From sequence record PZ386967.1: 64,000 nucleotides of DNA; one strand, written 5' to 3'. Of this stretch, positions 2,015 to 55,446 are shown piece after piece; positions within the stretch are counted from its first letter, which is position 1; the number at the start of each line of letters is the position of its first letter. Source of the DNA: a phage. The position numbers and the translations under genes are program-made. Below the pieces are notes generated by a model that was not told where the DNA came from, did no database searches, and was given only the letters and a program-made list of their open reading frames with translations.

Positions 2015-2629
2015 ATGAGCAACTATCTTCAGGGGAAGTACACCCCGGTTAATCCCAAGAAGTATCAGGGGAATGTGAATAACATCATCTTCCGCTCTTC
2101 GCTGGAGTTGGTGGCTTTCAAGTTCTGTGATATGAACTCCGCGATAGTGAAGTGGTCTAGTGAGGAGACCGTAATCCCTTACATTTCCCCAGTCGACGGG
2201 CGCACCCATCGTTACTTCATGGACCTCAAGGTCTGGACGCGCCGTGAAGGGCAAGAGGAACTACAGGTCACCCTCATTGAGATCAAGCCCAAAGACCAGA
2301 TCAAGCAGCCGAAGAAGACTCCGAACATGAAGGAGTCGACATTCAACAATGCGATGCGAACCTGGTTGGTCAATTCTGCCAAGTGGGAGGCCACCCGCGA
2401 ACTGTGTGCCAAGAAGAACTGGAAGTTCATTATCTGGACCGAAGAGCATCTTGTTCCAGGTGAAGATCCGGATGTTCGTAAACAGTTTGAGCTGAAGTCG
2501 AAAAAGAAACGGGATATGGAGATGCAAGATCGCCGACATGCCGAACGTGTCAGGGTGCTGAAGGAACAGATGCGGAAGGAGATTAAACCCGCCCCAACGG
2601 AGCGGGATGATGGACTTCTATTACCTTAA
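2015..2629 (+). CDS. hypothetical protein
   Basis: 204-aa ORF with ATG and AGGA SD 8 nt upstream; the only plus-strand gene inside this minus-strand block; lysine-rich C-terminus. Confidence 0.55.
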   Translation: MSNYLQGKYTPVNPKKYQGNVNNIIFRSSLELVAFKFCDMNSAIVKWSSEETVIPYISPVDGRTHRYFMDLKVWTRREGQEELQVTLIEIKPKDQIKQPKKTPNMKESTFNNAMRTWLVNSAKWEATRELCAKKNWKFIIWTEEHLVPGEDPDVRKQFELKSKKKRDMEMQDRRHAERVRVLKEQMRKEIKPAPTERDDGLLLP

Positions 2630-5774: not shown

Positions 5775-6066
5775 GATCGTCTTCATCAGGGAATATACGC
5801 CATCGACCTATTCCATACCACTCACCGATAGAGTTCCATGTCCTTTCCCCAGGCCAGCCGCCGACCGAGTAGTAATGCGTCACCAGCCGCCAGTAAGGAA
5901 GAGAGGCCGTGTTCACGCCGCCGTCGGCCTTTAGGCAGGCCAAGTACCAATTCGTGAGACTGAACGCCTGAAATAACGGATGAAGGAACATGAAGTACAG
6001 GTAGCCCAATATGGCTGTGAATACCCCAGCTGTTACGATCACACCGATGACAGTGAATACAATCAT
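5764..6066 (-). CDS. small membrane protein
   Basis: 100-aa ORF; ATG overlaps the dexA-like stop (ATGA); long hydrophobic segments. Confidence 0.45.
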   Translation of the reverse strand: MIVFTVIGVIVTAGVFTAILGYLYFMFLHPLFQAFSLTNWYLACLKADGGVNTASLPYWRLVTHYYSVGGWPGERTWNSIGEWYGIGRWRIFPDEDDQAP

Positions 6067-6695
6067 CCCACAACCTCCAGACCCATCAGATCTTCCATGG
6101 TCTTCTGAATACGCAGCCAGTCAAGCGCAGCGTCATAACGAGGGTCATGATAGACCATACCTTCCAGTTCCCACGCCTTGATACCAGCATACCGATCCTG
6201 CTGTCCAACACCCTTCAGCCAACTCACGATGTCGAAGGTGTGGTGGTAGTCCCAAGGCTCGTTGGAGTCCTGCTTACATGTCACCTCAATGATGTGCTGA
6301 GCCTTGCGCAGATCAAACAGGTTGCGATCACACCAGTCGACCGAGCGCGGGTCTACCCCAAGACGATGACAACCCTTGCGGATTTCATCGGCCAATTGGA
6401 AGATAGAGATGTCATCTTCCTTGGGGTACAGACTGACTGCGCGAGCCGCATCACACGGGTTACGTTTACCCGCCCCCAACCACCATTCTACCGTCCCAGC
6501 GTCCTTCACGCGACCAAGTTCGAGCTGCTCTTTGACATTCAGCTTAATGAACGTCGTGCGCTCCTCAACCAGCTGCTGAAGAGTATAACGCTTGGTCAGG
6601 TCGGCGATGGTGTGCGCCCAAGACAGCATGACTGCATCATCCCAGCGCCCCAAGGTTTCACTGTCGGCCACAGCCAAAAAATTTGATTTATACAT
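6063..6695 (-). CDS. dexA: DnaQ-like 3'-5' exonuclease (DexA-like)
   Basis: N-terminal FLAVADSETLG (DxE exonuclease motif I); TVEWW and other segments resemble recalled T4 DexA. Confidence 0.6.
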   Translation of the reverse strand: MYKSNFLAVADSETLGRWDDAVMLSWAHTIADLTKRYTLQQLVEERTTFIKLNVKEQLELGRVKDAGTVEWWLGAGKRNPCDAARAVSLYPKEDDISIFQLADEIRKGCHRLGVDPRSVDWCDRNLFDLRKAQHIIEVTCKQDSNEPWDYHHTFDIVSWLKGVGQQDRYAGIKAWELEGMVYHDPRYDAALDWLRIQKTMEDLMGLEVVG

Positions 6696-6939
6696 GTTTA
6701 TTCTCCCAACACTTTATTTTGGCTTTTACTGTATAATAATTTTCATCAATGAACTTTTTGTTGACGCGCTTAATTTCTATCTCTGGGCAAAGTAACCCTA
6801 TAGTTTCCCTCAAAATCTGGCTCACCCTGGCCTGTGAAATACAATAAATTTCTGATACTTCTTTCGAACTAGTTCCAGACATGACAAGTTTTAGAATATT
6901 GACCTTTTTATAAAATTCTTGATCAAACGCACATATCAT
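6688..6939 (-). CDS. small HTH protein (sigma-70 region-4-like)
   Basis: 83 aa; SSKEVSEIYCISQARVSQILRETIGLL resembles sigma region 4 / LuxR HTH; sits in a strongly AT-rich stretch. Confidence 0.45.
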   Translation of the reverse strand: MICAFDQEFYKKVNILKLVMSGTSSKEVSEIYCISQARVSQILRETIGLLCPEIEIKRVNKKFIDENYYTVKAKIKCWENKHV

Positions 6940-6942
6940 TAT

Positions 6943-7542
6943 TCACCCCTCCTCGTCGATGATTTCTTGCTCATCTTCGACAATCATGATACCTTCTGCG
7001 TCCAGATGAGAAAGTTCCATCAGATCATTATCGAATCCGTCTCCTTCCCTGATATAGAAGACTGGGACGACACGACGGCGGGTCTCTTCATACACGCTTT
7101 CAGAGATTCGATTGATATGGCGTACTACACTGTAGAGGTTCAGGCCACCAATACCACAGCCGATAGCAGGCAGGCCGACATAGACAGTTTCGTCTTTAGT
7201 TGCTTCCACAATTTCATGCACCTGCTCAAACAGGGTCTGAACAGAACTGATGACAGACGGCATGCGAGCGTTCGGGCCTGGATAAAACTGAGTGTAGAGG
7301 TTCGCGCCCCAAACGCCCTTGCTGTGGTCAAATGCATAGGACATACCACCCAGGCGTTGCTCTGGACCACGAGGGTCGTTCGCATCGACTTCGCGCAGCG
7401 CTGGGAAGTTGTTGCCGATGTGCAGAGCAATGCCCGCACCCATGGTAGACCAGCAGTTGGCACCGTGGGCAAAGATGTCGATCAGATTGAAGCTACAGGC
7501 GGCTTTCAGTAGATCGCCGCCATTGATTACATATGTGGTCAT
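6943..7542 (-). CDS. macro-domain protein (ADP-ribose binding/processing)
   Basis: YVINGGDLLKA...FAHGANCWSTMGAGIAL resembles the macro-domain Gly-rich ADP-ribose-binding motif; start moved to ATG 7542 with GGAGA SD. Confidence 0.6.
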   Translation of the reverse strand: MTTYVINGGDLLKAACSFNLIDIFAHGANCWSTMGAGIALHIGNNFPALREVDANDPRGPEQRLGGMSYAFDHSKGVWGANLYTQFYPGPNARMPSVISSVQTLFEQVHEIVEATKDETVYVGLPAIGCGIGGLNLYSVVRHINRISESVYEETRRRVVPVFYIREGDGFDNDLMELSHLDAEGIMIVEDEQEIIDEEG

Positions 7543-7781
7543 GCGTACTGTCTCCATTCAATAATGCTGTTGTCAACACATGACACTTGGATGATGCCTG
7601 TGCGGTGGTGATAATCAGTCATCTGCATGATAAAGTTGTTCCCATTGCGGATAATGGTGTTGACAACGATACCCTTGGCAGCAAGGCGTATTACAATGGC
7701 AGTGCAAAGACGGTCCATGTAACCGGACACAGAACCTGGTTCGAAGCATCGCTCGAACAGATTTTCAAATTCTGGGCTCAT
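7539..7781 (-). CDS. hypothetical protein
   Basis: 80-aa ORF with ATG start; its stop overlaps the macro-domain gene start (ATGA). Confidence 0.45.
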   Translation of the reverse strand: MSPEFENLFERCFEPGSVSGYMDRLCTAIVIRLAAKGIVVNTIIRNGNNFIMQMTDYHHRTGIIQVSCVDNSIIEWRQYA

Positions 7782-7831
7782 TTGATGTTACCAAACAAGA
7801 GGTCGAGGCGGTAATAATACCGCCTTTTTCT

Positions 7832-8242
7832 TCAATAGAGGTCTTCGGAAAAGAGTTCGCGGAATGGGGTTGTCTTCAGGCGCACCTGATTGATCTGTCC
7901 AGCTTCACGGGCTACGATGCATGCCTCTTCACGAGTAAGGAAGTTGCCCTGGTTGTCGATGAATCCCTGTTCGCGGGTATGGGTGGATTTAATGACGCCT
8001 GCCTCTTTCAGGATCTTGAGCTGGTTGTTCATGAATCGGCTGTGGTGACGGTCAGCAACGACGATTACATCACCATATTTGTTGGCGGCAGCGACCACAC
8101 GACGCTCCCAGGCACCTTCGGCAGGAAGTTCACGAGTGTACAGGGGAATCATCGTATCACCGATGTCATCCCCCTTCACCTGTGAGAACAACTTGCCTTC
8201 AGTTCCCGTTGGGAGTTCACGAAAATATCCCAGTAATTTCAT
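7832..8242 (-). CDS. hypothetical protein
   Basis: 136-aa ORF, ATG start; no family assigned confidently. Confidence 0.45.
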   Translation of the reverse strand: MKLLGYFRELPTGTEGKLFSQVKGDDIGDTMIPLYTRELPAEGAWERRVVAAANKYGDVIVVADRHHSRFMNNQLKILKEAGVIKSTHTREQGFIDNQGNFLTREEACIVAREAGQINQVRLKTTPFRELFSEDLY

Positions 8243-8293: not shown

Positions 8294-8524
8294 CTAGTTC
8301 TTCAGATCATGGAAACAGTCGCCGAGGAATTGTATTTTGCCGTCGGTCAGGAATAGATGGCAAAATGATGCTGGATCAGTTGCATTCACCAGCAGGCTCG
8401 GTGTGAACGTAGGCTCAATAACATTGTTGTTCCACGACCACATCGGACCTTGGGTTTCGCCCTTAATGTGATATAGATGAAGCATATCACACCCAGGACA
8501 ATGAAAATACAAGGAATCATCCAT
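8294..8524 (-). CDS. small Cys-rich protein (CPGC motif)
   Basis: 76-aa ORF with CPGC plus further Cys/His residues. Confidence 0.4.
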   Translation of the reverse strand: MDDSLYFHCPGCDMLHLYHIKGETQGPMWSWNNNVIEPTFTPSLLVNATDPASFCHLFLTDGKIQFLGDCFHDLKN

Positions 8525-40427: not shown

Positions 40428-42206
40428 ATGGCCACGCAAACAGTCCCTTCACTCGATGTCAGGGCTTTCGAGTATCTTATCAAGAAGCGCATGAAAGCTG
40501 ATCCAACTTTCAAGGATTATGACTTTGAAGGTTCTGGTCTCAGTGCAATCGTGCGTATCTTGGCCTCGGATGCCAACTCTATCGGGTTCATGCAGAACAT
40601 GCTGAATGGCGAAAGCCATCTTCACTCTGCTCAACAGCGTTCTAATGTCGGTCTTGCGGCCGGGTTCTTGTCGTACACCCCTCACAACTACCAGGCGGCG
40701 TACCTGTACGCAAACGTCACAGTCACTCCATATGACGCCAGCACGGCTCCGGACACGATTATAATGGATCGCCGCGCGATGTTCATTGGGGCGAAGGATG
40801 GCAAATCCTACAACTTCACGGTTGACCAACCTGTGAGTGCCTCTCTTGTAGACGGCTCTTACAAGTTCGAGAACATCAAACTCGTACAGGGCAACTGGCT
40901 ATACAAGTCCTATGACGTGGAAGGCAGCGCGATCTCTACCTATGTGATCCCATCTTCTTCCGTGGACATCGACCATATGGTGGTGCAGGTGCAGGAATCT
41001 GAGACATCTGACGTGCGGTCTACCTTCTCACGATATGTCAGCCCGTTCGATTTGAGCCAGTATGCGCAACTCTACTTCGTTGAGCTGGGGTTGGACGGGA
41101 TGTATACGTTCGAATTCGGTGATGGGTATATCTGTAAGCGAGTAGAAGACGGGAACGTCGTGTACCTCCAGTATCTGGAGACAGCTGGTGCGGACGGCAA
41201 TGACATCACTGCCTTGTCCTCCGCGTCTTCCATCGGGGGATTCAACCTTGTAGATGTTGAGCTGGTGTCAGAACGTTCTTCCGGTGGTGCGGACCCGGAG
41301 AGCATTGAGGACATCAAGCGCCTTGCTCCGCTGGCTTATCAGGCTGAGGGTGCGGCGGTAGCTGAAGTCGATTATGCTGTGTTGACCGAGCGTCTGTTCT
41401 CCAACGTCTCCCGCGCCAAAGCATATGGCGGAGACACGCTCTCTCCGCCCGACTCCGGATACGTTTACATTGCTGTGGTGCCTTCTGTTGGTGAGACGCT
41501 CTCGGACGCCGAGAAGGCAGATATCGTGGCGAAGTTGGACAAGTACAATGTGGGCACGATCACACCCAAGATTGTCGACGCTGAACTGACTTATGTTGAT
41601 GTCACCACCCGCGTGTTCTGGGATCCGACTTCCACGACTTACACCGAAGAGCAGTTGAAGACAGTCGTGAAGAACGGTGTTGTCAACTGGGGCTTGGGGA
41701 ACCTAGAAGGATTCGACGAACTGTTCGATAAAGAGCAGTTGCAGTCGGCCATCACCGACATGGACAGATCGATAGTGTCAAACATCACTTCTGTGAAGTA
41801 TAAGCGCCATTTCAAGCCAGACTATGGGGTACTGGACAGCTTCACATTCGATTATGGGCGCTCGATTGCGTCTGGTTCTGTGCGTATCAGTGGGTTTAAG
41901 CCGCTTCCGGCCGAGGTCGAATTCACTTACTACATACGCGACGTCAGTGGTGTCCTGAATATGTACAAGGTGAGTACAACAGACACGACCAAGGAATATC
42001 TGGTACAAGCTGTTGGAATGGTTGATTATGTGACTGGCGTTGTTGAACTCCAGCGTATCATAGTATCCAACTACAACACTGAGGGTGTGACAATAATTGT
42101 GTCTCCAGACGGTCTTGACCAGAACATACAGGCCACACAGAATCAGGTGCTCCGCATCGGTGCTGTAACTGTGGAGCCGGAGGTGCGTTATGTCCAAAGA
42201 TCTTAA
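40428..42206 (+). CDS. 6: baseplate wedge protein (T4 gp6-like, Baseplate_J family)
   Basis: N-terminal DYDFEGSGLSAIVRILA matches recalled T4 gp6 (DYDFEGSRLNVLCDLLA); start moved to ATG 40428 with GGAG SD (ORF-track start is TTG). Confidence 0.7.
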   Translation: MATQTVPSLDVRAFEYLIKKRMKADPTFKDYDFEGSGLSAIVRILASDANSIGFMQNMLNGESHLHSAQQRSNVGLAAGFLSYTPHNYQAAYLYANVTVTPYDASTAPDTIIMDRRAMFIGAKDGKSYNFTVDQPVSASLVDGSYKFENIKLVQGNWLYKSYDVEGSAISTYVIPSSSVDIDHMVVQVQESETSDVRSTFSRYVSPFDLSQYAQLYFVELGLDGMYTFEFGDGYICKRVEDGNVVYLQYLETAGADGNDITALSSASSIGGFNLVDVELVSERSSGGADPESIEDIKRLAPLAYQAEGAAVAEVDYAVLTERLFSNVSRAKAYGGDTLSPPDSGYVYIAVVPSVGETLSDAEKADIVAKLDKYNVGTITPKIVDAELTYVDVTTRVFWDPTSTTYTEEQLKTVVKNGVVNWGLGNLEGFDELFDKEQLQSAITDMDRSIVSNITSVKYKRHFKPDYGVLDSFTFDYGRSIASGSVRISGFKPLPAEVEFTYYIRDVSGVLNMYKVSTTDTTKEYLVQAVGMVDYVTGVVELQRIIVSNYNTEGVTIIVSPDGLDQNIQATQNQVLRIGAVTVEPEVRYVQRS

Positions 42207-43044
42207 TAACGGACACAATGGGGTGAAATATGAAACCCCATTGTTTTACCAGAATGAATTCCCAGTATTCATCGAGTTTATGGATACGTTCTTCAACTGG
42301 TTGTATCGCCAGCAGGGATTCACCGAAGAGGAGATCTTGGCGTATCTGGCAGACACTGGTGGCTGGGTGAACCCAAATACGGATCAGTCTCCTATTGAGC
42401 AGTTGATTGACATCAAGAAGCGCAAGACGCCAGGTACTGAGGCCAAAGACTTCTTGGAAGACAAGTTCCTGACGCGCACGTTTGAGAACATGATGGCGCT
42501 AGACTTCGAAGATTTGCTGGACGTGGACGGTCGGCCATTAATCTCAATGGAAGACAAGAACGAACGCATCGACGATTGGTATGCTGATTTTGGATTCCAG
42601 AGAACGGTTGATAAGTCCTTCCTGGAGTTCGGGAAGTTTGTGCCAGTTGGTTCGGACAGTTTGGTGACTTCAGACGGAGACACTCTCTCTGTGTATGTCG
42701 AGGGAACTGAACGCCGGACACTGGACCATGTACGCTGGTTGAAGTTACTTAAACACATTTATCGCATTCGCGGGACGAAGAAAGCGATTGAATTGTTCTT
42801 CTGGATTTACTTTGGTTGCCCAGTGAGTGTGTATTATCCCAAGGAAGAAATTGGTGGCCTGGATGACAACTTTGAATGTGACGGCGCGACAGGAATGCGT
42901 GACGATTACTACTATGATGAATTCACGTATGTGATAAGAGTTCCTGGCAACGTATCTGATTTTGAAGGTGTGTTTGATCGCGTCTTCCGTCAGCATTTCC
43001 ATCCTGCTGGGTTTACTGTATTCCTAGAAAGTTCAAGGAGTTAA
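42190..43044 (+). CDS. putative baseplate protein
   Basis: 284-aa ORF translationally coupled to the gp6-like gene; GGAGGTG SD; function from synteny only. Confidence 0.4.
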   Translation: MSKDLNNGHNGVKYETPLFYQNEFPVFIEFMDTFFNWLYRQQGFTEEEILAYLADTGGWVNPNTDQSPIEQLIDIKKRKTPGTEAKDFLEDKFLTRTFENMMALDFEDLLDVDGRPLISMEDKNERIDDWYADFGFQRTVDKSFLEFGKFVPVGSDSLVTSDGDTLSVYVEGTERRTLDHVRWLKLLKHIYRIRGTKKAIELFFWIYFGCPVSVYYPKEEIGGLDDNFECDGATGMRDDYYYDEFTYVIRVPGNVSDFEGVFDRVFRQHFHPAGFTVFLESSRS

Positions 43045-43045
43045 A

Positions 43046-44236
43046 ATGGCCGATTTTCTGAGTCGATACACAGGTCAGCAGATTGATGCAATCCTTTCTT
43101 CTGTTGACGATAAAATAAGCAAGACTGATGTTGTCAACGATTTCGCTGTTGATGATCCGTTGTTCCCTCCTTCAGCTCATTTGACATACGAGCTGAAGCG
43201 TTCTGTGGATAAAATCTACGACACACTGGAAAACAAAGTGATCCGCACCGACGGTGGTGAACAAACGATCAACGGGAACAAGACCTTTGCTGCGTTATTG
43301 ACAGCCAACGGCGGCCTGACTGTTCCGGCTGGGAAGAAACTGTCTATCGCGGATGAGCCTATAGTAGCGACAGATGGTGTTAACCTGAGCATGTTGAGAA
43401 AGCATGGTGTCAGTGAAGACACTACCCCGCCTGGTTCTGGTTTGGCTGGGGAGTTGTTGACATCCGGATATTACAAATTCAATTTGGATTTCACCAGATT
43501 GTCTGCGTATACCGGATCAACGTTGCCGACTTCAATTCCAGTACAAACAGATTCTGGAGCGCGTTATTGGACAATGACTGCATTTTTTGATGCGTTGTTC
43601 GCAGACAACCGATTTAATGGATATGTGACAACGACAGCGTATGACGCAGATATGCTGAGTCTAGAGTCCCAGATTAATAACATCAACACATCGTTGAACG
43701 GGAAAGTCAACACATCGACTTACAACACTAAGATGGCGTCGTTGGATTTGAGTATCTCCAATATCAATACGTCTCTGGGTAATAAAGTCGAGGTCAGCAC
43801 GTACAACACGAAGATGACATCTCTGGATAACAGCATCAGTTCTCTTTCCAGTGATAAAGTTAATGTATCAACGTATAATGCCAAGATGACCTCTGTCGAC
43901 AATAGTTTAGGGAACGCCGTTTATCGTACCAAAACGAATTTGTCTTCTTACACGGTTTCGGCTTCTGGGACGACGGCTCTTCCAGATTTTGATTTGGTGA
44001 ACCTTTGTCAAATACTGGTGACCGCGCAATGGGGAACAGGTAACGTTGTTGATACATATCGAGTAACCATAACTCGCGACGGAACTATCAAATCGGAGTT
44101 GTTGGTTCAGAAAAGTACGAGCGGTACAGTGACGTTCACAGGGGCTGTGGTGGGTGGTAAATTGAGAATTTCCGTTGTTAATGCGAATACAACAACTGCT
44201 TGTTCGGTCGATTATTCTATTGTAGCTTCTTTCTAA
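43046..44236 (+). CDS. tail-fibre-like protein with tandem ~25-aa repeats
   Basis: Three to four tandem repeats of the form VxxSTYNTKMxSLDxSIS...; start 2 nt after the previous stop. Confidence 0.5.
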   Translation: MADFLSRYTGQQIDAILSSVDDKISKTDVVNDFAVDDPLFPPSAHLTYELKRSVDKIYDTLENKVIRTDGGEQTINGNKTFAALLTANGGLTVPAGKKLSIADEPIVATDGVNLSMLRKHGVSEDTTPPGSGLAGELLTSGYYKFNLDFTRLSAYTGSTLPTSIPVQTDSGARYWTMTAFFDALFADNRFNGYVTTTAYDADMLSLESQINNINTSLNGKVNTSTYNTKMASLDLSISNINTSLGNKVEVSTYNTKMTSLDNSISSLSSDKVNVSTYNAKMTSVDNSLGNAVYRTKTNLSSYTVSASGTTALPDFDLVNLCQILVTAQWGTGNVVDTYRVTITRDGTIKSELLVQKSTSGTVTFTGAVVGGKLRISVVNANTTTACSVDYSIVASF

Positions 44237-44243
44237 AGTGAAA

Positions 44244-44283
44244 ACTAAATACCCCTAGATGAAACGAACACATTTAGGGGTAT
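44244..44283 (+). promoter_or_regulatory. late-promoter-like motif ACTAAATAC plus 5' leader hairpin
   Basis: CTAAATA core, then inverted repeat ATACCCCTA / TAGGGGTAT whose 3' arm holds the only G-rich SD-like sequence before ATG 44289. Confidence 0.45.
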
Positions 44284-44288
44284 TTGAA

Positions 44289-47200
44289 ATGGCTAATAAA
44301 CCAACACAGCCTGTTTTCCCTCTCGGTCTGGTGGCTGAAGAGCAGTCTACTTTGGCTGGTGTCGTCAACACGGGTACGATTGAGCATGGACCAGATGCTG
44401 TCCTGACTTTACCCGAGGGTAATGCCAGCGCAGGACTCCCGTCTTCCGTTCGCTACAATGCCGACTCCGACGAATTTGAGGGCTTCTATGAAAATGGTGG
44501 ATGGTTGCCGCTGGGTGGCGGTGGTATCCGCTGGGAAGTCCTTCCGCATGCCTCTACGGTAATGCTCACTGAAGGGCGAGGCTATCTCATTAATAATACC
44601 ACAGGGGCATCTACAGTGGTTCTCCCTTCCCCTACGCGTATTGGGGATTCCGTTACTATTTGTGATGCTTATGGGAAATTTGCCACTTACCCATTGACCG
44701 TGTCTCCTTCTGGAAATAATTTGTATGGCTCCACTGAAGACATGGCTATAACAACTGATAACGTATCAGCAACGTTCACTTGGTCTGGACCTGAACAAGG
44801 TTGGATTATTACATCCGGCGTCGGTCTTGGCCAAGGCCGTGTCTACAGTCGTGAAATCTTTACAAAAATTTTGGCGTCTGAAACAAGTACTGTCACTCTC
44901 AATACTCCACCAACAATCGTGGACGTGTATGCTGACGGAAAACGCCTTGCGGAATCCAAATATTCACTAGATGGGAATGTAATCACTTTCAGTCCTTCTT
45001 TGCCAGCCAGCACAGAACTTCAGGTGATTGAATATACTCCTATTCAATTGGGTAATGGCGGTGGTTCTAGTTCTTCTACGATTACTTGGGTCTATAATGG
45101 GGGTTCAGCGATTGGCGGTGAAACCGAAATCACGTTGGACGTCGTTGTTGATGATGTTCCGGCCATTGATATAAACGGAAGTCGTCAGTATAAAAATCTG
45201 GGATTCACATTCGATCCATTAACCAGTAAAATCACTCTGGCGCAAGAACTGGAACCAGAAGATGAAGTTGTTGTAATCATCAATGGAACACCAAACATCT
45301 ATAATCAAATTGATCATACTTTGCGGGAAGTGGCTCGTGTAACCAATGTTAAAGATACAGAGGTCGTTTATTTTAGTGTTGGTGCTGTGCTAAGCGGGTA
45401 TAAAGTTATCTATGATAAAGTAACACAGAGATCATATTTTATTCCAGAGCTACCGACTGGAACCACGGCAGTCAGCCTTAGTTCTTCGGCTGTACTTGTG
45501 CATTCTGCTGGTAGTGTTGATCTGGGCGCATTAGCCGTATCTCGTGAGGAGTATGTGACCTTACCTGGTTCATTCGATACAGGTGTAACTGTTAATACCA
45601 AGAATGAGTTGGTTGTGAGTAACGATATTAAATATCGTTGGGATGGTTCTGTACCCAAAGTAGTCCCTCCAGAATCTACCCCATTGGGTACAGGAGGTGT
45701 TGGTCCAGGGGCATGGCTTGTAGTTGGTGTTGTTGGATTAGAGCAACGTTTAGCCTCCTGGAAAGGTTCTTCTCTTATTGATTCCGGTAGTCTGTCTCTT
45801 TACAAAAAGAGCGGTGTATTCGGTGATGGTGGGAATGTATCCGATAAATATCAGGTTGTTCTACATTCAGATGGGTTCTGGTACAAGTACAATGGGACAC
45901 TACCTGTTAGTTATGGTGCTGCCCCAGACTCTTCTTGGACTAACGTTGGTAAGCTAACAGGGTTTAATGAACACTCACCTGAGAATTTTGGTGCAATCCC
46001 CAATGACCCTAGTTTTGACTGTTTACCTGCTATAAAACTAGCTATAGCCACAGGTACATTAAATCTGAATGGGAATTCTACCTACCACGTAACGGATGAG
46101 GTTGTTATACCTTCTTACTTACGTGGGAATCTAAACGGGGCAACAATTAAAGCAATTGGCTCCGTATGGCCTACGTTAAAAGCTGTTGTACGCGTTAGTA
46201 AATTTCCTGTCGGTACAGCAACAGTGGATGTGGCTAATACAGAGAATCAAGTGCGAGGATTACGCTTAATCGGTAGCTTAAACGTAGACTGTGCAGATAT
46301 TGCATCATATGGTTTTTATGCACGTCTTCTGTGTGCAGAATCTGAGATGGGTAGCATCTATGCATATAATGCTAATAGATATGGCATTGTAATGTTTGCT
46401 TGCTGGTATTTTCAAATGGGCACTCTCCATGCAAACAACTGTGCAAGGGGTATGGCATTAGGTTATTCAACAGAAGGTGAGCAAGGGGATACCTATGTGA
46501 ATGCTACACACTTCCCTCACATTAGTGCATGGGGTACTGATAAGTCTACGGGACTAGGTTATGACCCAATCACGGATGATGCGAGTAAATATACAATAGG
46601 TGCTGGTATTATCTTAGGTCGTGGTTTGTCTACCAGTGTTGGTGTGATTTGCTCTGAGAATACGGCAGGTGCTGGGGTAGTAACAATGGACCCTGCTGCG
46701 TGGGACATTGGGGTCATGTACTGTGAGGGTAATAGTAAAGACTTTACTCAAGAGGGTGAACCCAAGGTGTCATTGCTGTCATCCAAGGCCAACAGTGAAA
46801 GTCATACGCTTACCATCTCCACACTCCACCTTTCCGCAGGTTGTGGCATTTTAACCAGAAGCAATCAAGAGCGTGTGCTAATCAGAAGTCTATATCGCTT
46901 TGATAACGCAAAAACCTTCCACTCTTACTGCACAGCAGACACAGTAGAGGTTGGTAGCAGCAACTACTATGTACTTAACGGGCATAATTACAATGCACCT
47001 GCTGCACTTATTAAGGAACCGCTCAATGTAGACTTTGTGCGTTCAGGGTTGACTTTAAGTGAGTGGACATCTACAGTTATCGGTCATTTTGCTGGTAGTA
47101 CAGCAGAACAACAGCTTTATGTTAAGCTCCCAGCAAGTCCCAGCGGCCTAGATTTACAGATAGATAGTGAGGATGGGACGGAATATATCACTGTAACTGG

Positions 47201-47342
47201 TACAGATTTTAAAGTCTCTCTAACTAAGAAAAGATTGCCTAGTAAACTGTATGAGATAAGGATTGGTGGGGTGTCTACAGTAGCTGTTACCGATTGTTCT
47301 ATTCTAGTCAGAAGTAAAAAAGGTGATTGGTATTACTGGTAG
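44289..47342 (+). CDS. tailspike protein with N-terminal adaptor region and internal conserved anchor module (TSP4-like)
   Basis: 1017 aa from ATG 44289; internal about 150-aa module (VVYFSVGAVLSGYKVIYDK...HSAGSVDLGALAVSREEYVTLPGSFDTGVTVNTKNELVV...) shared with three downstream genes; Asn/Gly-rich C-terminal half consistent with a beta-helix. Confidence 0.65.
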   Translation: MANKPTQPVFPLGLVAEEQSTLAGVVNTGTIEHGPDAVLTLPEGNASAGLPSSVRYNADSDEFEGFYENGGWLPLGGGGIRWEVLPHASTVMLTEGRGYLINNTTGASTVVLPSPTRIGDSVTICDAYGKFATYPLTVSPSGNNLYGSTEDMAITTDNVSATFTWSGPEQGWIITSGVGLGQGRVYSREIFTKILASETSTVTLNTPPTIVDVYADGKRLAESKYSLDGNVITFSPSLPASTELQVIEYTPIQLGNGGGSSSSTITWVYNGGSAIGGETEITLDVVVDDVPAIDINGSRQYKNLGFTFDPLTSKITLAQELEPEDEVVVIINGTPNIYNQIDHTLREVARVTNVKDTEVVYFSVGAVLSGYKVIYDKVTQRSYFIPELPTGTTAVSLSSSAVLVHSAGSVDLGALAVSREEYVTLPGSFDTGVTVNTKNELVVSNDIKYRWDGSVPKVVPPESTPLGTGGVGPGAWLVVGVVGLEQRLASWKGSSLIDSGSLSLYKKSGVFGDGGNVSDKYQVVLHSDGFWYKYNGTLPVSYGAAPDSSWTNVGKLTGFNEHSPENFGAIPNDPSFDCLPAIKLAIATGTLNLNGNSTYHVTDEVVIPSYLRGNLNGATIKAIGSVWPTLKAVVRVSKFPVGTATVDVANTENQVRGLRLIGSLNVDCADIASYGFYARLLCAESEMGSIYAYNANRYGIVMFACWYFQMGTLHANNCARGMALGYSTEGEQGDTYVNATHFPHISAWGTDKSTGLGYDPITDDASKYTIGAGIILGRGLSTSVGVICSENTAGAGVVTMDPAAWDIGVMYCEGNSKDFTQEGEPKVSLLSSKANSESHTLTISTLHLSAGCGILTRSNQERVLIRSLYRFDNAKTFHSYCTADTVEVGSSNYYVLNGHNYNAPAALIKEPLNVDFVRSGLTLSEWTSTVIGHFAGSTAEQQLYVKLPASPSGLDLQIDSEDGTEYITVTGTDFKVSLTKKRLPSKLYEIRIGGVSTVAVTDCSILVRSKKGDWYYW

Positions 47343-47350
47343 TATAATAA

Positions 47351-47380
47351 AAAGCCCCCAATTTTGGGGGCTTTTATTAT
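47351..47380 (+). terminator. rho-independent terminator
   Basis: Hairpin AAAGCCCCC-AATTTT-GGGGGCTTT followed by a T-run. Confidence 0.6.
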
Positions 47381-47414
47381 ATAGAGTTTACTGTTTTCAT
47401 TACCCTGATTGATA
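47374..47414 (+). repeat. about 40-nt intergenic repeat, copy 1
   Basis: TATATAGAGTTTACTGTTTTCATTACCCTGATTGATA; near-identical copy at 55206..55246. Confidence 0.6.
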
Positions 47415-47597
47415 ATGCTGTTGGCTCTCTCGGGTTGTCATCAAACGGGTATAAGAACTTTATAGGTGATATCAATGATGGGTCAGCGTATTTTTATTTC
47501 ACCAACATAGATGGATCAAGAATATCGGGGTCGTCTGTTTATGATGGGTGGGGTGATGTTGGTATACATTTTGAAATGTGTCTGGAATAGGAGTGTC

Positions 47598-47696
47598 AAA
47601 CCCCGCTTTGGCGGGGTTCTTATTATACCTTTGTTCATAAATTTGATTAGTTCAGACTAAATACTCCATATTGGTCATCCTTTATGGGGTATTATC
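47598..47696 (+). repeat. duplicated tailspike upstream cassette, copy 1 (hairpin, late-promoter-like motif, leader hairpin)
   Basis: About 85% identical by eye to 50575..50675; includes GACTAAATAC at 47655-47664 and leader hairpin ATACTCCATA / TATGGGGTAT at 47661-47692. Confidence 0.6.
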
Positions 47697-50126
47697 ATGA
47701 TTTCTCAATTCAATCAACCACGCGGCTCCACTTCCATAGAAGTTAACAAACAATCTATCGCTCGAAATTTCGGTGTCAAAGAAGACGAAGTCGTTTATTT
47801 CACTGCTGGTATTGATCTCAGTGGATTTAAAGTAATTTATAATGAGTCTACCCAACGGGCTTATTCTCTTCCTTCAGGTATTGTTTCAGGAACGACTGCG
47901 ATAAGTCTGGATAAAAGAGCTATCCTCACTCATTCAGCGGGTTCTGTTGATCTTGGGGAATTAGCAGTAAGCCGCGAAGAATACGTAACCTTACCTGGTT
48001 CATTTGATACTGGTGTAACTGTTAATACTAAGAATGAATTAGTTGTCTTTACCGATGGTAAGTATCGCTGGGATGGGGCACTGCCTAAAGAAGTGCCTGC
48101 TGGTTCAACCCCTACATCAACCGGTGGTGTTGGAACAGGTGCATGGGTTAGTGTTGGTGATGCGAGTTTGAGGTCAATAGCTCAATACAGAGCCAATACC
48201 ATTGAAGATTTAAAATCATTGCCATTTGCGGTTGGAGATATTGTTAATGTCGCTGGGTATTATGATGTTTTTGATGGGGCACAGCATTACCGAGTGATTA
48301 GTGGTACAGATGATGGAACAGGGGTTCAGCTCAATAATGGTTTGTGGGCAAATATTATCATTAATGGCGATGCTTGTGTAGATTGGTTTGGCGCTAAAGG
48401 TGATGGTGTTGCAGATGACTGGTGGGCAATCAATAAAGCTATTAACGCCTCGCTCTCTACCGATTATCAGGGTGGTTGGTGGGAGACGTCAAGTAGAAAC
48501 CCTAAATTTAAAGTTAGACTTAGTAGACGCTCTTACAGAATCACTAAACAGATTTTACTACCCCCTTACATAGAGTTTTATGGTATGGGTTCGCGCTGGT
48601 ATTTTTCGGGTGATAATAATTCTCGCTTAATCCCTGATTTTGATAATCCGTTGCAATTCGCTGTGAAATCTGCTAGCTATATTGTTGAAACCGGTGAACT
48701 AGCACCTGAGGGGTGGTATTCTGGGGTGGTTTGGGTTGACCCAAAAAAACTAACGACTTGTCATGGTATTAAAACTTATGGATATAGCATCGAACCAACA
48801 AAACAAATTTTAGGCGGTATAAGACTGATAGCGAGTCCAATTTCTCATGTATACGATATATTCATAACAAATGTTGATTTTGGAGTTTTACTGAATTGTT
48901 CATGGGTGAGTAAGGTTGACGTTAAAACTCATCATAATAAATGCGGGGTTATGTCTAGTCATGATGGTAATAACACTCACGTGGATGGTTATTTTACAGG
49001 GACAGAAATCAAACCGCTTGATGGTAATCCTTACCTCAACCCAATAGAGTCTTTAGACTCTACAACAGGGCTCCAAGACCAATCTATATCTGACCCAGAC
49101 AGTAAAATAGGTGTGATTTTTTATTGGTCACAGGGGTCAACAAGTACGAATATGACGTGTGAGGGTAACACTATTTCGTTGGCTGTGGCTAAGGGTGGTG
49201 CTGATGTAAGGTGTTTATACTCAGAACGTAATTCAGATTGTACATTTACTGGGTACAGTTCACTAGTTACAATTGGTGAAATAACTGGCATTGGTGACGG
49301 TGGAACTTTTGAGCTTGGTGTAAATAATACTATTTCGTTAGACAAAGACACTCAGTATGGTGTCGCTAAACGATTTAAGTACGTGAGCGAGTGGGGTAAT
49401 AAGCTGTTTATGCCCTCTAGCTGGAAAGAATACACCAAAGGTTGTTTAGTTGAAGGGTTTGATTATAGCGAAATTTTTGTAGATGCGATAAATGGAGATG
49501 ACACCAATGTTGGCTCCAGTCTTCACCCTGTGAAAACTTTGGAGAGAGCTCTAACGCTTGTGAATTCAGTGTATACTACATCTGACTTGCTAAGCTCAGT
49601 GCCGAGGGATAGAGTAATAAAGTTAGTAGGCTCAGCAACATACTACCCAGACGGACAGCATAGGTTCGTGGGCGGCTCGTTAAAAATTACAAAAGCTGAT
49701 AACTCACGACCGACTGTTAATTTATCAAAACCAATCCGATTTAACGACACATCCCTAGTATTTGAGGAAGTAAATTTAGTGCGACCAACAGATGACCACG
49801 GGAATAATGAGAATGGCGCAATTTTCCTTGAGGATGGGTGTAATGAAGTCAGATTGAAAAACTGCGATCTAAGTCTACAAAAATTCAGCTTCTTATATCC
49901 TACTTGGGGCTTTGCTGGAATATGTACCTTGGTGTTAAACGGGGTTAGTGTTACTGGTGATTCAACAACAAGAATGATACAAACAGCTGATGGATATCAT
50001 GATTTGCACTTGTTTAATGTAATTAGCTACGAGACAACTTACACTGGAGGAATAGAGTCAAGACCAGATAAAGGCTATGATATACCAGCAGATAGACGTG
50101 GTCATATATTGGGTGTATCAATATAA
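47697..50126 (+). CDS. tailspike protein with N-terminal anchor module (TSP1-like)
   Basis: 809 aa; the conserved module sits at the N-terminus; a 50-nt stretch (48114-48163) is identical to 51597-51646; Asn/Gly-rich C-terminal region. Confidence 0.65.
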   Translation: MISQFNQPRGSTSIEVNKQSIARNFGVKEDEVVYFTAGIDLSGFKVIYNESTQRAYSLPSGIVSGTTAISLDKRAILTHSAGSVDLGELAVSREEYVTLPGSFDTGVTVNTKNELVVFTDGKYRWDGALPKEVPAGSTPTSTGGVGTGAWVSVGDASLRSIAQYRANTIEDLKSLPFAVGDIVNVAGYYDVFDGAQHYRVISGTDDGTGVQLNNGLWANIIINGDACVDWFGAKGDGVADDWWAINKAINASLSTDYQGGWWETSSRNPKFKVRLSRRSYRITKQILLPPYIEFYGMGSRWYFSGDNNSRLIPDFDNPLQFAVKSASYIVETGELAPEGWYSGVVWVDPKKLTTCHGIKTYGYSIEPTKQILGGIRLIASPISHVYDIFITNVDFGVLLNCSWVSKVDVKTHHNKCGVMSSHDGNNTHVDGYFTGTEIKPLDGNPYLNPIESLDSTTGLQDQSISDPDSKIGVIFYWSQGSTSTNMTCEGNTISLAVAKGGADVRCLYSERNSDCTFTGYSSLVTIGEITGIGDGGTFELGVNNTISLDKDTQYGVAKRFKYVSEWGNKLFMPSSWKEYTKGCLVEGFDYSEIFVDAINGDDTNVGSSLHPVKTLERALTLVNSVYTTSDLLSSVPRDRVIKLVGSATYYPDGQHRFVGGSLKITKADNSRPTVNLSKPIRFNDTSLVFEEVNLVRPTDDHGNNENGAIFLEDGCNEVRLKNCDLSLQKFSFLYPTWGFAGICTLVLNGVSVTGDSTTRMIQTADGYHDLHLFNVISYETTYTGGIESRPDKGYDIPADRRGHILGVSI

Positions 50127-50574
50127 ATAATTGATATTATGCTTCATGGTGATTGTGGGTGATTCACCCACGATTACTTTTAGGTACTACAGTTGATAAT
50201 TCAGATTGATACATTGGATTGGCAGGTGCGTGTAATACTGCACTTGAATTTTGATACATAAATCCGGCACCCTCCCTCACCCTCAACGCGCCCAATTGCC
50301 CCCATAGGAGGCTCATTACCTCCTTGTGGGCTTTGTTGTTTTTGTGGCTGCTGTTGCTGACTACATTCTATGTATGGATGTATCTCATCATACTAAGCAT
50401 TATCTAAGAGCCATCCTATGATACGACCCCATTGGGATTCCTAACTTCACAACTACGGTAATATTATGAATTAATCAGGTGAACTGCTCCTAGTCAGACT
50501 GGAGGAACGATTGAAGACTCTGTTTGATAATCAGGCAAGGGATAGATAGGATCGTGGTTTTGGAGAGTAAAATC

Positions 50575-50675
50575 AAAACCCCTCTTCGGCGGGTTCTTGT
50601 TATACCTTTGTTCATAAATTTATTAGTTCAGACTAAATACCCCATATTGGCAAATCCTCTATGGGGTATCTTCAA
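50575..50675 (+). repeat. duplicated tailspike upstream cassette, copy 2
   Basis: Contains GACTAAATAC at 50631-50640 and perfect 10-bp leader hairpin ATACCCCATA / TATGGGGTAT at 50637-50669; the ORF-track ATG at 50661 lies inside the hairpin arm. Confidence 0.6.
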
Positions 50676-53180: not shown

Positions 53181-53184
53181 AACT

Positions 53185-53210
53185 AACCCCGCTTCGGCGG
53201 GGTTTCTTAG
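53185..53210 (+). terminator. terminator-like hairpin
   Basis: Hairpin AACCCCGC-TTCG-GCGGGGTT followed by TTCTTAG. Confidence 0.45.
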
Positions 53211-53228
53211 AAAAACAAAGAGGTCGTT

Positions 53229-55145: not shown

Positions 55146-55162
55146 GTAATAATCACTTAAAA

Positions 55163-55191
55163 ACAACCCCACTTCTATGGGGTTGTTTTTA
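55163..55191 (+). terminator. rho-independent terminator
   Basis: Hairpin AACAACCCCA-CTTCTA-TGGGGTTGTT followed by TTTTT. Confidence 0.55.
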
Positions 55192-55205
55192 CTTATTAAT
55201 AATAC

Positions 55206-55246
55206 TTTTTATATAGAGTTTACTGTTTGCATTACCCTAATCGATA
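55206..55246 (+). repeat. about 40-nt intergenic repeat, copy 2
   Basis: TATATAGAGTTTACTGTTTGCATTACCCTAATCGATA; about 36 of 39 positions identical to 47374..47414. Confidence 0.6.
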
Positions 55247-55404
55247 CAGCAGTTAAGGTAATAGTCTGACCTGATATATTAAACATACCTAATTGAATAC
55301 CATCTACCATGAATGGCAGAGGTCTCGAATCCATGACCATAACCACAGAAAGATAATCAAAGCCCCTTCGGGCTTATTTCTTTCTATTCCTCGGTTGGTT
55401 GTAT

Positions 55405-55413
55405 ACTAAATAT
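55405..55413 (+). promoter_or_regulatory. late-promoter-like motif ACTAAATAT
   Basis: 42 nt upstream of ATG 55447, which has a GGAG SD. Confidence 0.4.
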
Positions 55414-55446
55414 CTCTATAATGGCACCTATCGATGGAGCATCAAA

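What the first reader, a model, noticed from the sequence alone, without database searches (positions are those of the whole stretch)
6943..7542. Macro-domain protein among early genes: possible reversal of ADP-ribosylation (anti-defence)
The macro-domain signature (GANCWSTMGAGIAL, upstream Gly-rich VINGGDLL) indicates binding or hydrolysis of ADP-ribose or O-acetyl-ADP-ribose. Some bacterial immune systems ADP-ribosylate DNA or proteins or signal through NAD-derived molecules, so a phage macro domain is a plausible counter-defence enzyme. Its neighbours (7539..7781, 7832..8242, the Cys-rich 8294..8524) are uncharacterised and may act with it.
Basis: partly seen in the sequence, partly recalled or inferred. 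Interest (0 to 1): 0.5.

Follow-up and report, generated by a model that had tools for sequence, protein, structure and literature searches.

The report
Phage macrodomain, likely anti-DarTG eraser
This is a real phage gene for a small ADP-ribose-removing (macrodomain) enzyme related to phage T4 Tk.4/AdfM, which lets T4 escape the bacterial DarTG2 defence that ADP-ribosylates DNA, so it is a new member of a recently recognised class of counter-defence genes, not a new kind of system.

Summary
Window 6943..7542 (-) is a 199-aa gene with a GGAG ribosome-binding site and an ATGA overlap with the upstream gene. It lies in an Ackermannviridae (Aglimvirinae) phage about 97% identical to Escherichia phage AV101.

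It is a homologue of T4 Tk.4 (33% identity, E 1e-15; PHROG 335, E 2.5e-63). A 2025 preprint named Tk.4 AdfM because its knockout sensitises T4 to DarTG2.

The ADP-ribose-binding loops and the Asn matching DarG N22 are conserved. The catalytic Lys of DarG and TARG1 is replaced by an invariant Gln (NLYTQ). T4 Tk.4 has the same Gln, and so does SCO6735, where that Gln is essential for removing DarT-made thymidine-ADP-ribose.

The most likely function is a stand-alone eraser of DarT2 ADP-ribosylation on phage DNA. This is inferred, not tested.

It is not a DarG member: the score is far below the cutoff, and it has no DarT-binding domain and no adjacent DarT.

The neighbouring genes are linked to it only within Ackermannviridae, so no joint action is supported.

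One family-specific feature is a folded, very acidic 34-aa C-terminal extension of unknown role.

Verdict: new member of a known kind, modest interest.

The parts
6943..7542 (-). CDS of the 199-aa stand-alone macrodomain protein, a Tk.4/AdfM-family homologue (stop codon 6943..6945)
7552..7555 (-). GGAG Shine-Dalgarno sequence, 9 nt upstream of the ATG at 7542. The ATG overlaps the TGA stop (7539..7541) of the upstream DUF7234 gene as ATGA.
   Evidence: Sequence read directly.
7543..7557 (-). Five extra in-frame codons from an upstream ATG (the 204-aa alternative start). Probably not used.
   Evidence: No ribosome-binding site before 7557. Closest homologues are mostly 199 aa. Some annotators use the longer form (ChubbyThor gp59, 615 nt).
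7426..7467 (-). Motif H26-G-A-N29-C-W-S-T-M-G-A-G-I-A39. N29 matches Taq DarG N22 and PhiKZ AdfM N23. MGAGIA is the first phosphate-binding loop.
   Evidence: Invariant H, G, N, C and G in the 61-sequence alignment. Profile alignment to 5m31/5m3e. Residue roles from PMC13309987.
7288..7302 (-). Motif N81-L-Y-T-Q85. Q85 occupies the position of the catalytic Lys of DarG (K80), TARG1 (K84) and PhiKZ AdfM (K78).
   Evidence: N, T and Q are invariant. Alignments to DarG and TARG1 and to PhiKZ gp104. SCO6735 Gln85 at the same position is essential (PMC9411070).
7144..7170 (-). Motif P125-A-I-G-C-G-I-G-G133, the second (diphosphate and distal-ribose) binding loop
   Evidence: P is invariant; I, G, G, I and G are at least 90% conserved. 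Aligned with the PxxGxGxGG loop of DarG and TARG1.
6946..7047 (-). C-terminal extension, residues 166-199: 14 acidic and 0 basic residues, predicted helix-strand-helix. Present in Ackermannviridae-type homologues and absent from T4 Tk.4.
   Evidence: Composition. Alignment. pLDDT of the 10-residue blocks covering it is 94 or higher. The full length superposes on the Serratia phage phiMAM1 homologue, TM 0.83.

Best explanation
The gene encodes a stand-alone ADP-ribosyl glycohydrolase with a macrodomain fold (ALC1-like class). It is the Ackermannviridae counterpart of T4 Tk.4/AdfM.

Proposed mechanism: the protein is made from the replication and nucleotide-metabolism gene block. It binds ADP-ribose attached to thymidine in single-stranded phage DNA, which a host DarT2 toxin installs at TNTC motifs once infection releases the toxin. 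It cleaves the base-ribose bond, releases free ADP-ribose and restores a normal template, so replication and packaging continue. In effect it is an orphan antitoxin.

Catalysis probably does not use the Lys of DarG and TARG1. It more likely resembles the Lys-independent route proposed for SCO6735. In that route Gln85 positions the distal ribose and a water molecule is activated, while Asn29 and the two glycine-rich loops hold the ADP-ribose.

Shown here: the gene, the fold, homology to Tk.4, DarG and SCO6735, and conservation of the pocket residues.

Taken from the literature: the phenotype of T4 tk.4, the biochemistry of the chimallivirus AdfM, and the SCO6735 mechanism.

Inferred: that this protein acts on DarT2-modified DNA, and that its role in the phage is counter-defence.
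For: - Sequence profile: DarG 7e-17 and 5e-16, TARG1 4e-14, SCO6735 7e-12. NCBIfam antitoxin_DarG and PADLOC DarG are the only hits in those two libraries.
- Homology to T4 Tk.4: 33% identity over 115 aa, E 1e-15. The window protein matches PHROG 335. Both share the HGxNC, NLYTQ and IGxGIG motifs.
- T4 tk.4 was the single DarTG2-specific hit in a transposon screen, and a clean knockout is DarTG2-sensitive (10.1101/2025.11.20.689424).
- A different phage macrodomain, PhiKZ gp104, removes DarT2 ADP-ribose from DNA in vitro (PMC13309987).
- SCO6735 has Gln at the catalytic-Lys position. It reverses DarT thymidine ADP-ribosylation, and Q85A/E mutants are inactive (PMC9411070).
- Invariant family residues map onto the pocket.
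- A homologue at 60% identity or more with at least 80% coverage occurs in about 250 phage records, close to the 275 records that match the surrounding 5.5-kb region. Homologues occur in 2681 phage records overall. More distant homologues also sit in phage replication contexts.
Against: - No assay exists for this protein or for any Ackermannviridae homologue. The held literature on the family does not mention it.
- The T4 evidence is genetic only and comes from a preprint.
- Identity to T4 Tk.4 is only 33% over the core. Similarity to DarG HMMs is weak (28.6-33.6 bits, against 132.9 bits for PhiKZ AdfM).
- The canonical catalytic Lys is missing.
- The protein is acidic overall (pI 4.6; core 6.2), which is unusual for an enzyme that must grip DNA.
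- ALC1-like macrodomains also act on protein-ADP-ribose, on O-acetyl-ADP-ribose and on ADP-ribose-1''-phosphate.
- About 40% of thymidine in Ackermannviridae DNA is 5-NeOmdU (PMC11721090). Whether DarT2 modifies such DNA is unknown.
Confidence: 0.6

Rival explanations
1. It is a metabolic 'phosphatase' or small-molecule hydrolase of the Poa1p/YmdB type. It would process ADP-ribose-1''-phosphate or O-acetyl-ADP-ribose, which are by-products of 2'-phosphotransferase and sirtuin reactions, as part of phage NAD or RNA-repair metabolism, and would not erase a macromolecular modification.
For: - The historic annotation is 'phosphatase / A1pp motif' (T4 record; PHROG 335 label).
- The invariant His26 is shared with TARG1 (LAHC) but not with DarG.
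- In Pakpunavirus PsIn the homologue lies next to NAMPT and PRPP synthetase. In a Felix-O1-like phage and in a metagenomic phage it lies near polynucleotide kinase/PNKP.
Against: - The profile scores DarG and TARG1 above Poa1p (7e-17 against 1e-10).
- The only phenotype known for a family member is DarTG2-specific.
- The 'phosphatase' label comes from domain naming, not from an assay.
- The catalytic residues of Poa1p could not be mapped here.
Confidence: 0.12
2. It erases ADP-ribose from proteins or RNA rather than from DNA. It would counter other ADP-ribosyltransferase-based defences or toxins, or reset phage- or host-made protein ADP-ribosylation.
For: TARG1 and SCO6735, both close relatives, hydrolyse protein-linked ADP-ribose as well as thymidine-ADP-ribose (PMC9411070). 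The fold and pocket do not by themselves specify the leaving group.
Against: In the T4 screen tk.4 was picked up only with DarTG2. No ADP-ribosyltransferase gene was seen beside it among the proteins scanned within about 2 kb on either side.
Confidence: 0.15
3. It is a non-catalytic binder. It would sequester ADP-ribose-derived immune signals (Thoeris-type) or bind DarT directly, using the macrodomain pocket or the acidic C-terminal extension without hydrolysis.
For: - The canonical catalytic Lys is absent.
- Catalytically dead SCO6735, DarG and TARG1 still inhibit DarT by interaction (PMC9411070).
- The DarG C-terminal domain blocks DarT by mimicking acidic ssDNA (as summarised in PMC11481870).
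- The extension has 14 acidic and 0 basic residues in 34.
Against: - The Gln that replaces the Lys is invariant and is catalytic-essential in SCO6735.
- T4 Tk.4 protects against DarTG2 without any C-terminal extension.
- The extension is predicted to be folded onto the domain, not a free tail.
- No known Thoeris sponge is a macrodomain of this class (own knowledge).
Confidence: 0.08

Closest known systems
T4 Tk.4 = AdfM (anti-DarT factor Macrodomain), PHROG 335; bioRxiv 10.1101/2025.11.20.689424
   Same: Stand-alone phage macrodomain. 33% identity, E 1e-15. Same HGxNC, NLYTQ(F)xPGPN and IGxGIG motifs, including Gln at the DarG catalytic-Lys position. Both lie among early or replication-type genes.
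   Different: T4 Tk.4 is 155 aa. This protein has a 34-aa acidic, folded C-terminal extension. The gene neighbourhood differs. Only the T4 protein has a phenotype.
Chimallivirus AdfM (PhiKZ gp104); PMC13309987
   Same: Phage-encoded orphan macrodomain of the same structural class. hhalign probability 97.9%. The Asn matching DarG N22 is conserved.
   Different: gp104 is a true DarG2-like sequence: PADLOC DarG 132.9 bits against 28.6 bits here. It keeps the FPTK catalytic Lys (K78), where this family has Gln. It is imported into the phage nucleus. The two are probably independent acquisitions that share one name.
DarG2 antitoxin macrodomain (Taq 5M31/5M3E, Mtb 5M3I)
   Different: Here there is no catalytic Lys, no C-terminal DarT-binding domain and no adjacent darT. 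The score is far below the NCBIfam equivalog cutoff (33.6 against 250 bits).
Streptomyces coelicolor SCO6735 (5E3B); PMC9411070
   Same: ALC1-like macrodomain with Gln in place of the catalytic Lys. It is a stand-alone enzyme that reverses DarT thymidine ADP-ribosylation. Profile E 6.7e-12.
   Different: It is a bacterial, DNA-damage-regulated enzyme. Its long basic 'mobile loop' (K89, K94) was not verified here. The structural match is weaker than to DarG (Foldseek rank 44). The Gln equivalence is transitive, through DarG K80 and TARG1 K84, and was not aligned directly.
Human TARG1 / yeast Poa1p
   Same: Same macrodomain class. Top Foldseek hits, TM per target up to 0.80. The His of the AH(G/C) motif is shared with TARG1.
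   Different: The TARG1 Lys84/Asp125 dyad is absent. Poa1p is a phosphatase for ADP-ribose-1''-phosphate. Both are cellular, not viral.
AdfN (T4 30.3, NADAR); PMC11825919
   Same: Same logic: a phage carries an orphan copy of the antitoxin-type eraser to undo DarT DNA ADP-ribosylation.
   Different: It has an unrelated fold (NADAR). It is specific for guanosine-ADP-ribose made by DarT1 and is inactive against DarTG2.

Membership tests
Macrodomain superfamily (Pfam PF01661; ALC1-like class) | Three-layer alpha/beta/alpha macro fold | tested here: met
Macrodomain superfamily (Pfam PF01661; ALC1-like class) | Score at or above the Pfam gathering threshold (22 bits) | tested here: not met
   16.4 bits, E 0.009, partial match. 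Homologues pass: T4 Tk.4 27.7, rV5 25.9, Si3 28.9, PsIn 22.3 bits. The family profile hits solved macrodomains at E 1e-16 or better. The single-sequence failure reflects divergence, not absence of the domain.
Macrodomain superfamily (Pfam PF01661; ALC1-like class) | Two glycine-rich ADP-ribose/phosphate-binding loops and the N-terminal Asn | tested here: met
   MGAGIA (34-39), PAIGCGIGG (125-133) and N29 are conserved or invariant, and align with the DarG and TARG1 loops.
Tk.4 / AdfM family of T4-like and other phages (PHROG 335) | Significant sequence homology to T4 Tk.4 and to the family profile | tested here: met
   BLASTP 33% identity, E 1e-15. PHROG 335 E 2.5e-63 over residues 3-201. Relatives are annotated 'Tk.4 protein'.
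Tk.4 / AdfM family of T4-like and other phages (PHROG 335) | Family motifs HGxNC, NLYTQ and IGxGIG | tested here: met
   Alignment with T4, rV5, Felix-O1-like and Pakpunavirus proteins. H, G, N, C, N, T, Q and G are invariant in the 61 sequences of alignment A1.
Tk.4 / AdfM family of T4-like and other phages (PHROG 335) | Protects the phage against DarTG2 | not testable with these tools
   Shown only for T4 tk.4.
DarG2 antitoxin (NCBIfam NF048014 equivalog; PADLOC DarG) | Score at or above the equivalog cutoff (250 bits), matching the full-length model | tested here: not met
   33.6 bits, covering only model positions 6-135 of 338. PADLOC DarG 28.6 bits, against 132.9 bits for PhiKZ gp104.
DarG2 antitoxin (NCBIfam NF048014 equivalog; PADLOC DarG) | Catalytic Lys (Taq K80) in the FPTK motif | tested here: not met
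   Gln85 (NLYTQ) aligns with K80, with TARG1 K84 and with PhiKZ K78.
DarG2 antitoxin (NCBIfam NF048014 equivalog; PADLOC DarG) | C-terminal DarT-binding domain and an adjacent darT gene | tested here: not met
   The protein is 199 aa: a macro core plus a 34-aa extension. The neighbours are DexA, an HTH protein, DUF7234, Arn.3-like and DUF6527, and none of the three upstream neighbours has a PADLOC hit.
SCO6735-type (Gln-type) ALC1-like thymidine-ADP-ribose hydrolases | Gln at the position of the DarG/TARG1 catalytic Lys | tested here: met
   Q85 aligns with K80 and K84. The paper equates SCO6735 Gln85 with those lysines. The equivalence is transitive; a direct alignment to 5e3b could not be printed.
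SCO6735-type (Gln-type) ALC1-like thymidine-ADP-ribose hydrolases | Extended basic mobile loop (K89/K94) and an electropositive DNA groove | not tested
The overall pI of 4.6 (core 6.2) argues against a strongly basic surface.
Poa1p-type ADP-ribose-1''-phosphate phosphatase | Poa1p catalytic residues and phosphatase activity | not tested

The most novel reading that the evidence does not exclude
The Ackermannviridae form may be a two-mode anti-DarT factor. Its Gln-type macrodomain would erase thymidine-ADP-ribose by a Lys-independent mechanism. Its lineage-specific, folded and strongly acidic C-terminal helix-strand-helix would mimic ssDNA and dock onto DarT2, a miniature analogue of the DarG C-terminal inhibitory domain. 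Alternatively the extension could retarget the enzyme to another ADP-ribosylated substrate, such as DNA carrying 5-NeOmdU, RNA or protein. In either case the Tk.4 lineage and the Lys-type chimallivirus AdfM would be two independent captures of different macrodomain subtypes for the same job.
Probability: 0.12. Interest if true: 0.55.

Novelty: new member of a known kind. Interest (0 to 1): 0.3.

Why it matters
If correct, Ackermannviridae phages carry a core DarTG2 counter-defence gene. These phages (Kuttervirus, Agtrevirus and others) are widely used or proposed for biocontrol of Salmonella, E. coli, Shigella and Klebsiella. The gene would help predict host range on DarTG-carrying strains. 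It also extends the Tk.4/AdfM family, which occurs in about 2,700 sequenced phages, to another phage family.

Two biochemical questions follow. First, how does a macrodomain without the DarG/TARG1 lysine hydrolyse the thymidine-ribose bond? Second, what does the acidic C-terminal add-on do? Neither point changes the general picture, which is already established: phages carry orphan antitoxin-like erasers.

Tried and rejected
1. Single-sequence Pfam and PDB searches were too weak to decide (16.4 bits; E 0.027). A family profile and a structure model replaced them.
2. The promoter and terminator scan of 4.5-12.5 kb gave counts equal to shuffled sequence (9 against 8.6; 7 against 6.3). 'Early gene' could therefore not be checked this way.
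3. Functional linkage with the neighbours was tested with tblastn of the six flanking proteins against loci around Tk.4 homologues in T4, rV5, Felix-O1-like Si3 and Pakpunavirus PsIn. There were no hits outside the three Ackermannviridae loci, so joint action is rejected as unsupported.
4. A direct residue alignment to SCO6735 (5e3b) and to Poa1p could not be obtained, because only the five best alignments are printed. The Gln equivalence is therefore transitive.
5. Model coordinates are not exposed. I could not determine where the acidic extension packs relative to the active site, and could not compute surface charge.
6. Literature searches for Ackermannviridae plus DarTG or macrodomain found nothing relevant. 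A search for Poa1p catalytic residues was unproductive.
7. Membership of DarG proper was considered and rejected (see the membership tests).
8. The antisense ORF 6919..7512 (+), 197 aa, was treated as a shadow of the real gene. This was not tested: all family, homology and annotation evidence found belongs to the minus-strand frame.

Full report
**What is there**

The window comes from an Ackermannviridae (Aglimvirinae/Agtrevirus-like) phage. The 5.5 kb around the finding is 97% identical to Escherichia phage AV101. It is 91-95% identical to the Shigella and E. coli phages Ag3, ChubbyThor and 4HA11.

The ORF list shows a minus-strand ORF at 6943..7557 of 204 aa.

GGAG lies 9 nt upstream, and the ATG overlaps the TGA of the preceding gene as ATGA. 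The first ATG has no ribosome-binding site. Nearly all the closest database homologues are 194-206 aa, most of them 199 aa.

**Is it a macrodomain?**

On its own the sequence is below the Pfam gathering score (16.4 against 22 bits) and only marginal against PDB sequences (E 0.027). The stronger evidence is as follows.
- PHROG 335, labelled 'phosphatase' after the old A1pp name for the macrodomain, matches at E 2.5e-63.
- A 61-sequence family alignment (A1) used as a profile hits the solved DarG macrodomains at E 7e-17 (Mtb 5m3i) and 5e-16 (Taq 5m31/5m3e).
- The same profile hits TARG1 at 4e-14, BT1257, SCO6735 at 7e-12 and Poa1p at 1e-10.
- An AlphaFold2 model built on that alignment has mean pLDDT 96.3 and pTM 0.92.
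- Foldseek against the PDB returns TARG1, Poa1p, DarTG and DarG first, with TM per target 0.74-0.80.

So it is a macrodomain of the ALC1-like class.

**Pocket residues** (199-aa numbering)

The invariant or near-invariant family residues are H26, G27, N29, C30, M34-G-A-G-I-A39, N81-L-Y-T-Q85, G89 and P125-x-I-G-C-G-I-G-G133.

In the profile alignments N29 falls on Taq DarG N22. That is chain residue 32 with a 10-residue tag offset, which is consistent with K90 in the chain being K80. The two glycine-rich loops fall on the DarG and TARG1 phosphate-binding loops.

The catalytic Lys of DarG (K80), TARG1 (K84) and PhiKZ AdfM (K78) is replaced by the invariant Gln85. T4 Tk.4 carries the same NLYTQ motif.

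The SCO6735 paper reports that SCO6735 has Gln85 at exactly this position. It also reports that Q85A/E mutants are inactive, and that SCO6735 removes DarT-made thymidine-ADP-ribose from DNA more efficiently than DarG or TARG1, probably by a water-mediated, Lys-independent mechanism (PMC9411070).

The substitution is one known to be compatible with thymidine-ADP-ribose hydrolysis. The equivalence to SCO6735 is transitive, because I could not print a direct alignment.

**Link to a characterised protein**

Relatives of this gene are annotated 'Tk.4 protein'. I fetched T4 tk.4 and compared directly: 33% identity over 115 residues, E 1e-15.

A 2025 preprint found tk.4 to be the single T4 gene conditionally required on a DarTG2-expressing host. 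It showed that a clean knockout is DarTG2-sensitive and named the gene adfM. It proposed, but did not demonstrate, enzymatic removal of ADP-ribose from DNA (10.1101/2025.11.20.689424). Earlier work had predicted that T4 must carry such a factor (PMC11825919).

A separate paper gave the same name to the chimallivirus protein PhiKZ gp104. It showed de-ADP-ribosylation of DarT2-modified DNA in vitro and a 3-6 log plating defect of mutants on DarTG2 hosts (PMC13309987).

I fetched gp104. It is related (hhalign probability 97.9%) but is a different subtype. It keeps FPTK with the catalytic Lys. It scores 132.9 bits on the PADLOC DarG model, against 36 bits for T4 Tk.4 and 28.6 bits for the window protein.

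The window protein therefore belongs to the Gln-type Tk.4 lineage, not to the DarG2-like chimallivirus lineage.

**Distribution and context**

tblastn finds homologues in 2681 phage records. These include T4-like, rV5-like, Felix-O1-like, Pakpunavirus, phi92-like and Ackermannviridae phages. About 250 records have at least 60% identity and at least 80% coverage, close to the 275 records that match the surrounding region, so the gene appears to be near-core in Ackermannviridae. More distant metagenomic homologues also lie in phage replication contexts (rIIB, endonuclease VII, PNKP, DNA polymerase, ligase).

The flanking genes here are:
- DexA exonuclease (6063..6695);
- an 83-aa HTH protein (6688..6939), found in AV101 and not in Ag3 or ChubbyThor;
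- a DUF7234 protein (7539..7781);
- a T4 Arn.3 homologue (7832..8242; 38% identity, E 7e-20);
- a DUF6527 protein (8294..8524);
- the topoisomerase II subunits.

tblastn of these proteins against the loci around Tk.4 homologues in T4, rV5, Si3 and PsIn found none of them there. In T4, arn.3 lies three genes from gene 52 topoisomerase, as it does here, and about 100 kb from tk.4. The adjacency thus reflects family synteny, and there is no evidence that the neighbours act with the macrodomain.

**What differs from T4 Tk.4**

Residues 166-199 form an extension with 14 acidic and no basic residues. It is predicted with high confidence as helix-strand-helix. It is conserved in Ackermannviridae-type homologues and is missing from the 155-aa T4-type proteins. 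The whole length superposes on the Serratia phage phiMAM1 homologue (TM 0.83).

Its role is unknown. DarG has a C-terminal domain that blocks DarT by mimicking acidic ssDNA (summarised in PMC11481870). Catalytically dead SCO6735 still inhibits DarT. A DarT-contacting role is therefore conceivable, but it is speculative.

**Most likely mechanism**

The protein is an orphan antitoxin-like eraser. It would remove ADP-ribose that host DarT2 places on thymidine in single-stranded phage DNA, using Asn29, Gln85 and the two glycine loops, and so keep replication and packaging going. I put this at about 0.6.

The rivals are:
- a Poa1p/YmdB-like small-molecule hydrolase (0.12). It has some support from the old annotation, the Poa1p fold match, and the NAMPT/PRPP-synthetase neighbour in Pakpunavirus;
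- a protein or RNA ADP-ribose eraser (0.15);
- a non-catalytic binder (0.08).

An open caveat is that about 40% of thymidine in Ackermannviridae DNA is 5-NeOmdU (PMC11721090). Whether DarT2 modifies such DNA, and whether this enzyme handles it, is untested.

**Comparison and novelty**

The protein works like T4 AdfM and like a DarG macrodomain, but it is not a DarG. It fails the equivalog cutoff (33.6 against 250 bits). It lacks the catalytic Lys, the DarT-binding domain and a partner darT. It is a member of the Tk.4/PHROG 335 family by sequence and motifs.

The held literature on Ackermannviridae does not mention the gene. It is therefore a new member of a known kind. Two details merit a bench test: the Gln-type active site and the acidic extension. 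Interest is 0.3.

Noticed in passing
window 8294..8524 (-): The Cys-rich 76-aa neighbour is a DUF6527 (PF20137) protein: 47.6 bits, E 1.5e-12, covering the full-length domain. DUF6527 is BubE, a zinc-finger Ser/His protease that removes ubiquitin-like conjugates in bacterial 'Bub' ubiquitination-like operons (bioRxiv 10.1101/2024.11.21.623953). An orphan copy in a lytic phage could be another antitoxin-style counter-defence (a deconjugase). The Ser/His dyad was not checked. In AV101 the annotated ORF here is only 47 aa.
   Followed up: partly
window 7832..8242 (-): Homologue of T4 Arn.3 (38% identity over 97 aa, E 7e-20; PHROG 839), function unknown. It lies close to the gene 52-type topoisomerase subunit both here and in T4, so this linkage is older than the one with the macro gene.
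   Followed up: partly
window about 42000..56000 (+), ORFs 44259..47342, 47697..50126, 50661..53180, 53229..55145: A block with GC of 0.41-0.46 against about 0.50 elsewhere. It holds four large ORFs (638-1027 aa) in the position of the Ackermannviridae four-tailspike cluster. The nearest relatives cover only 54-64% of window 40-64 kb, which is consistent with tailspike module exchange and a host range different from AV101.
   Followed up: partly
locus L007 (Pseudomonas phage vB_Paer_PsIn) 1..3486: In this Pakpunavirus the Tk.4-like macrodomain gene lies just downstream of nicotinamide phosphoribosyltransferase and a PRPP-synthetase-family gene, with one small ORF between. That places it in an NAD-salvage context, which hints at a link to NAD/ADP-ribose metabolism in some lineages.
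   Followed up: no
window 6688..6939 (-): An 83-aa ORF with weak sigma-70 region 4 / LuxR-type HTH matches (sub-threshold), inserted between DexA and the macro gene. It is 100% identical in AV101 and absent at this position in Ag3 and ChubbyThor, so it is a small accessory regulator-like gene.
   Followed up: partly
locus L006 (Salmonella phage Si3) 2977..3756; BFVD hits such as Acinetobacter phage 133 tk.4 (245 aa): Several lineages (Felix-O1-like, some T4-like) carry Tk.4 homologues of 245-260 aa, with an additional unrelated C-terminal domain of about 100 aa. The family has therefore gained different C-terminal add-ons more than once.
   Followed up: no
window 7805..7826: A 9-bp GC-rich hairpin (GAGGCGGTA-ATAA-TACCGCCTT) lies in the 50-nt gap between the DUF7234 and Arn.3-like genes. 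Its T-run is on the plus strand, opposite to the genes. It may be a bidirectional terminator or an RNA-processing element, or it may be chance: terminator-like sites in the region were at shuffle level.
   Followed up: no
window 2015..2629 (+): This 204-aa ORF matches the TnsA-like endonuclease N-terminal domain (E 1.1e-17). Its counterpart in AV101 is annotated as head completion protein gp4.
   Followed up: no
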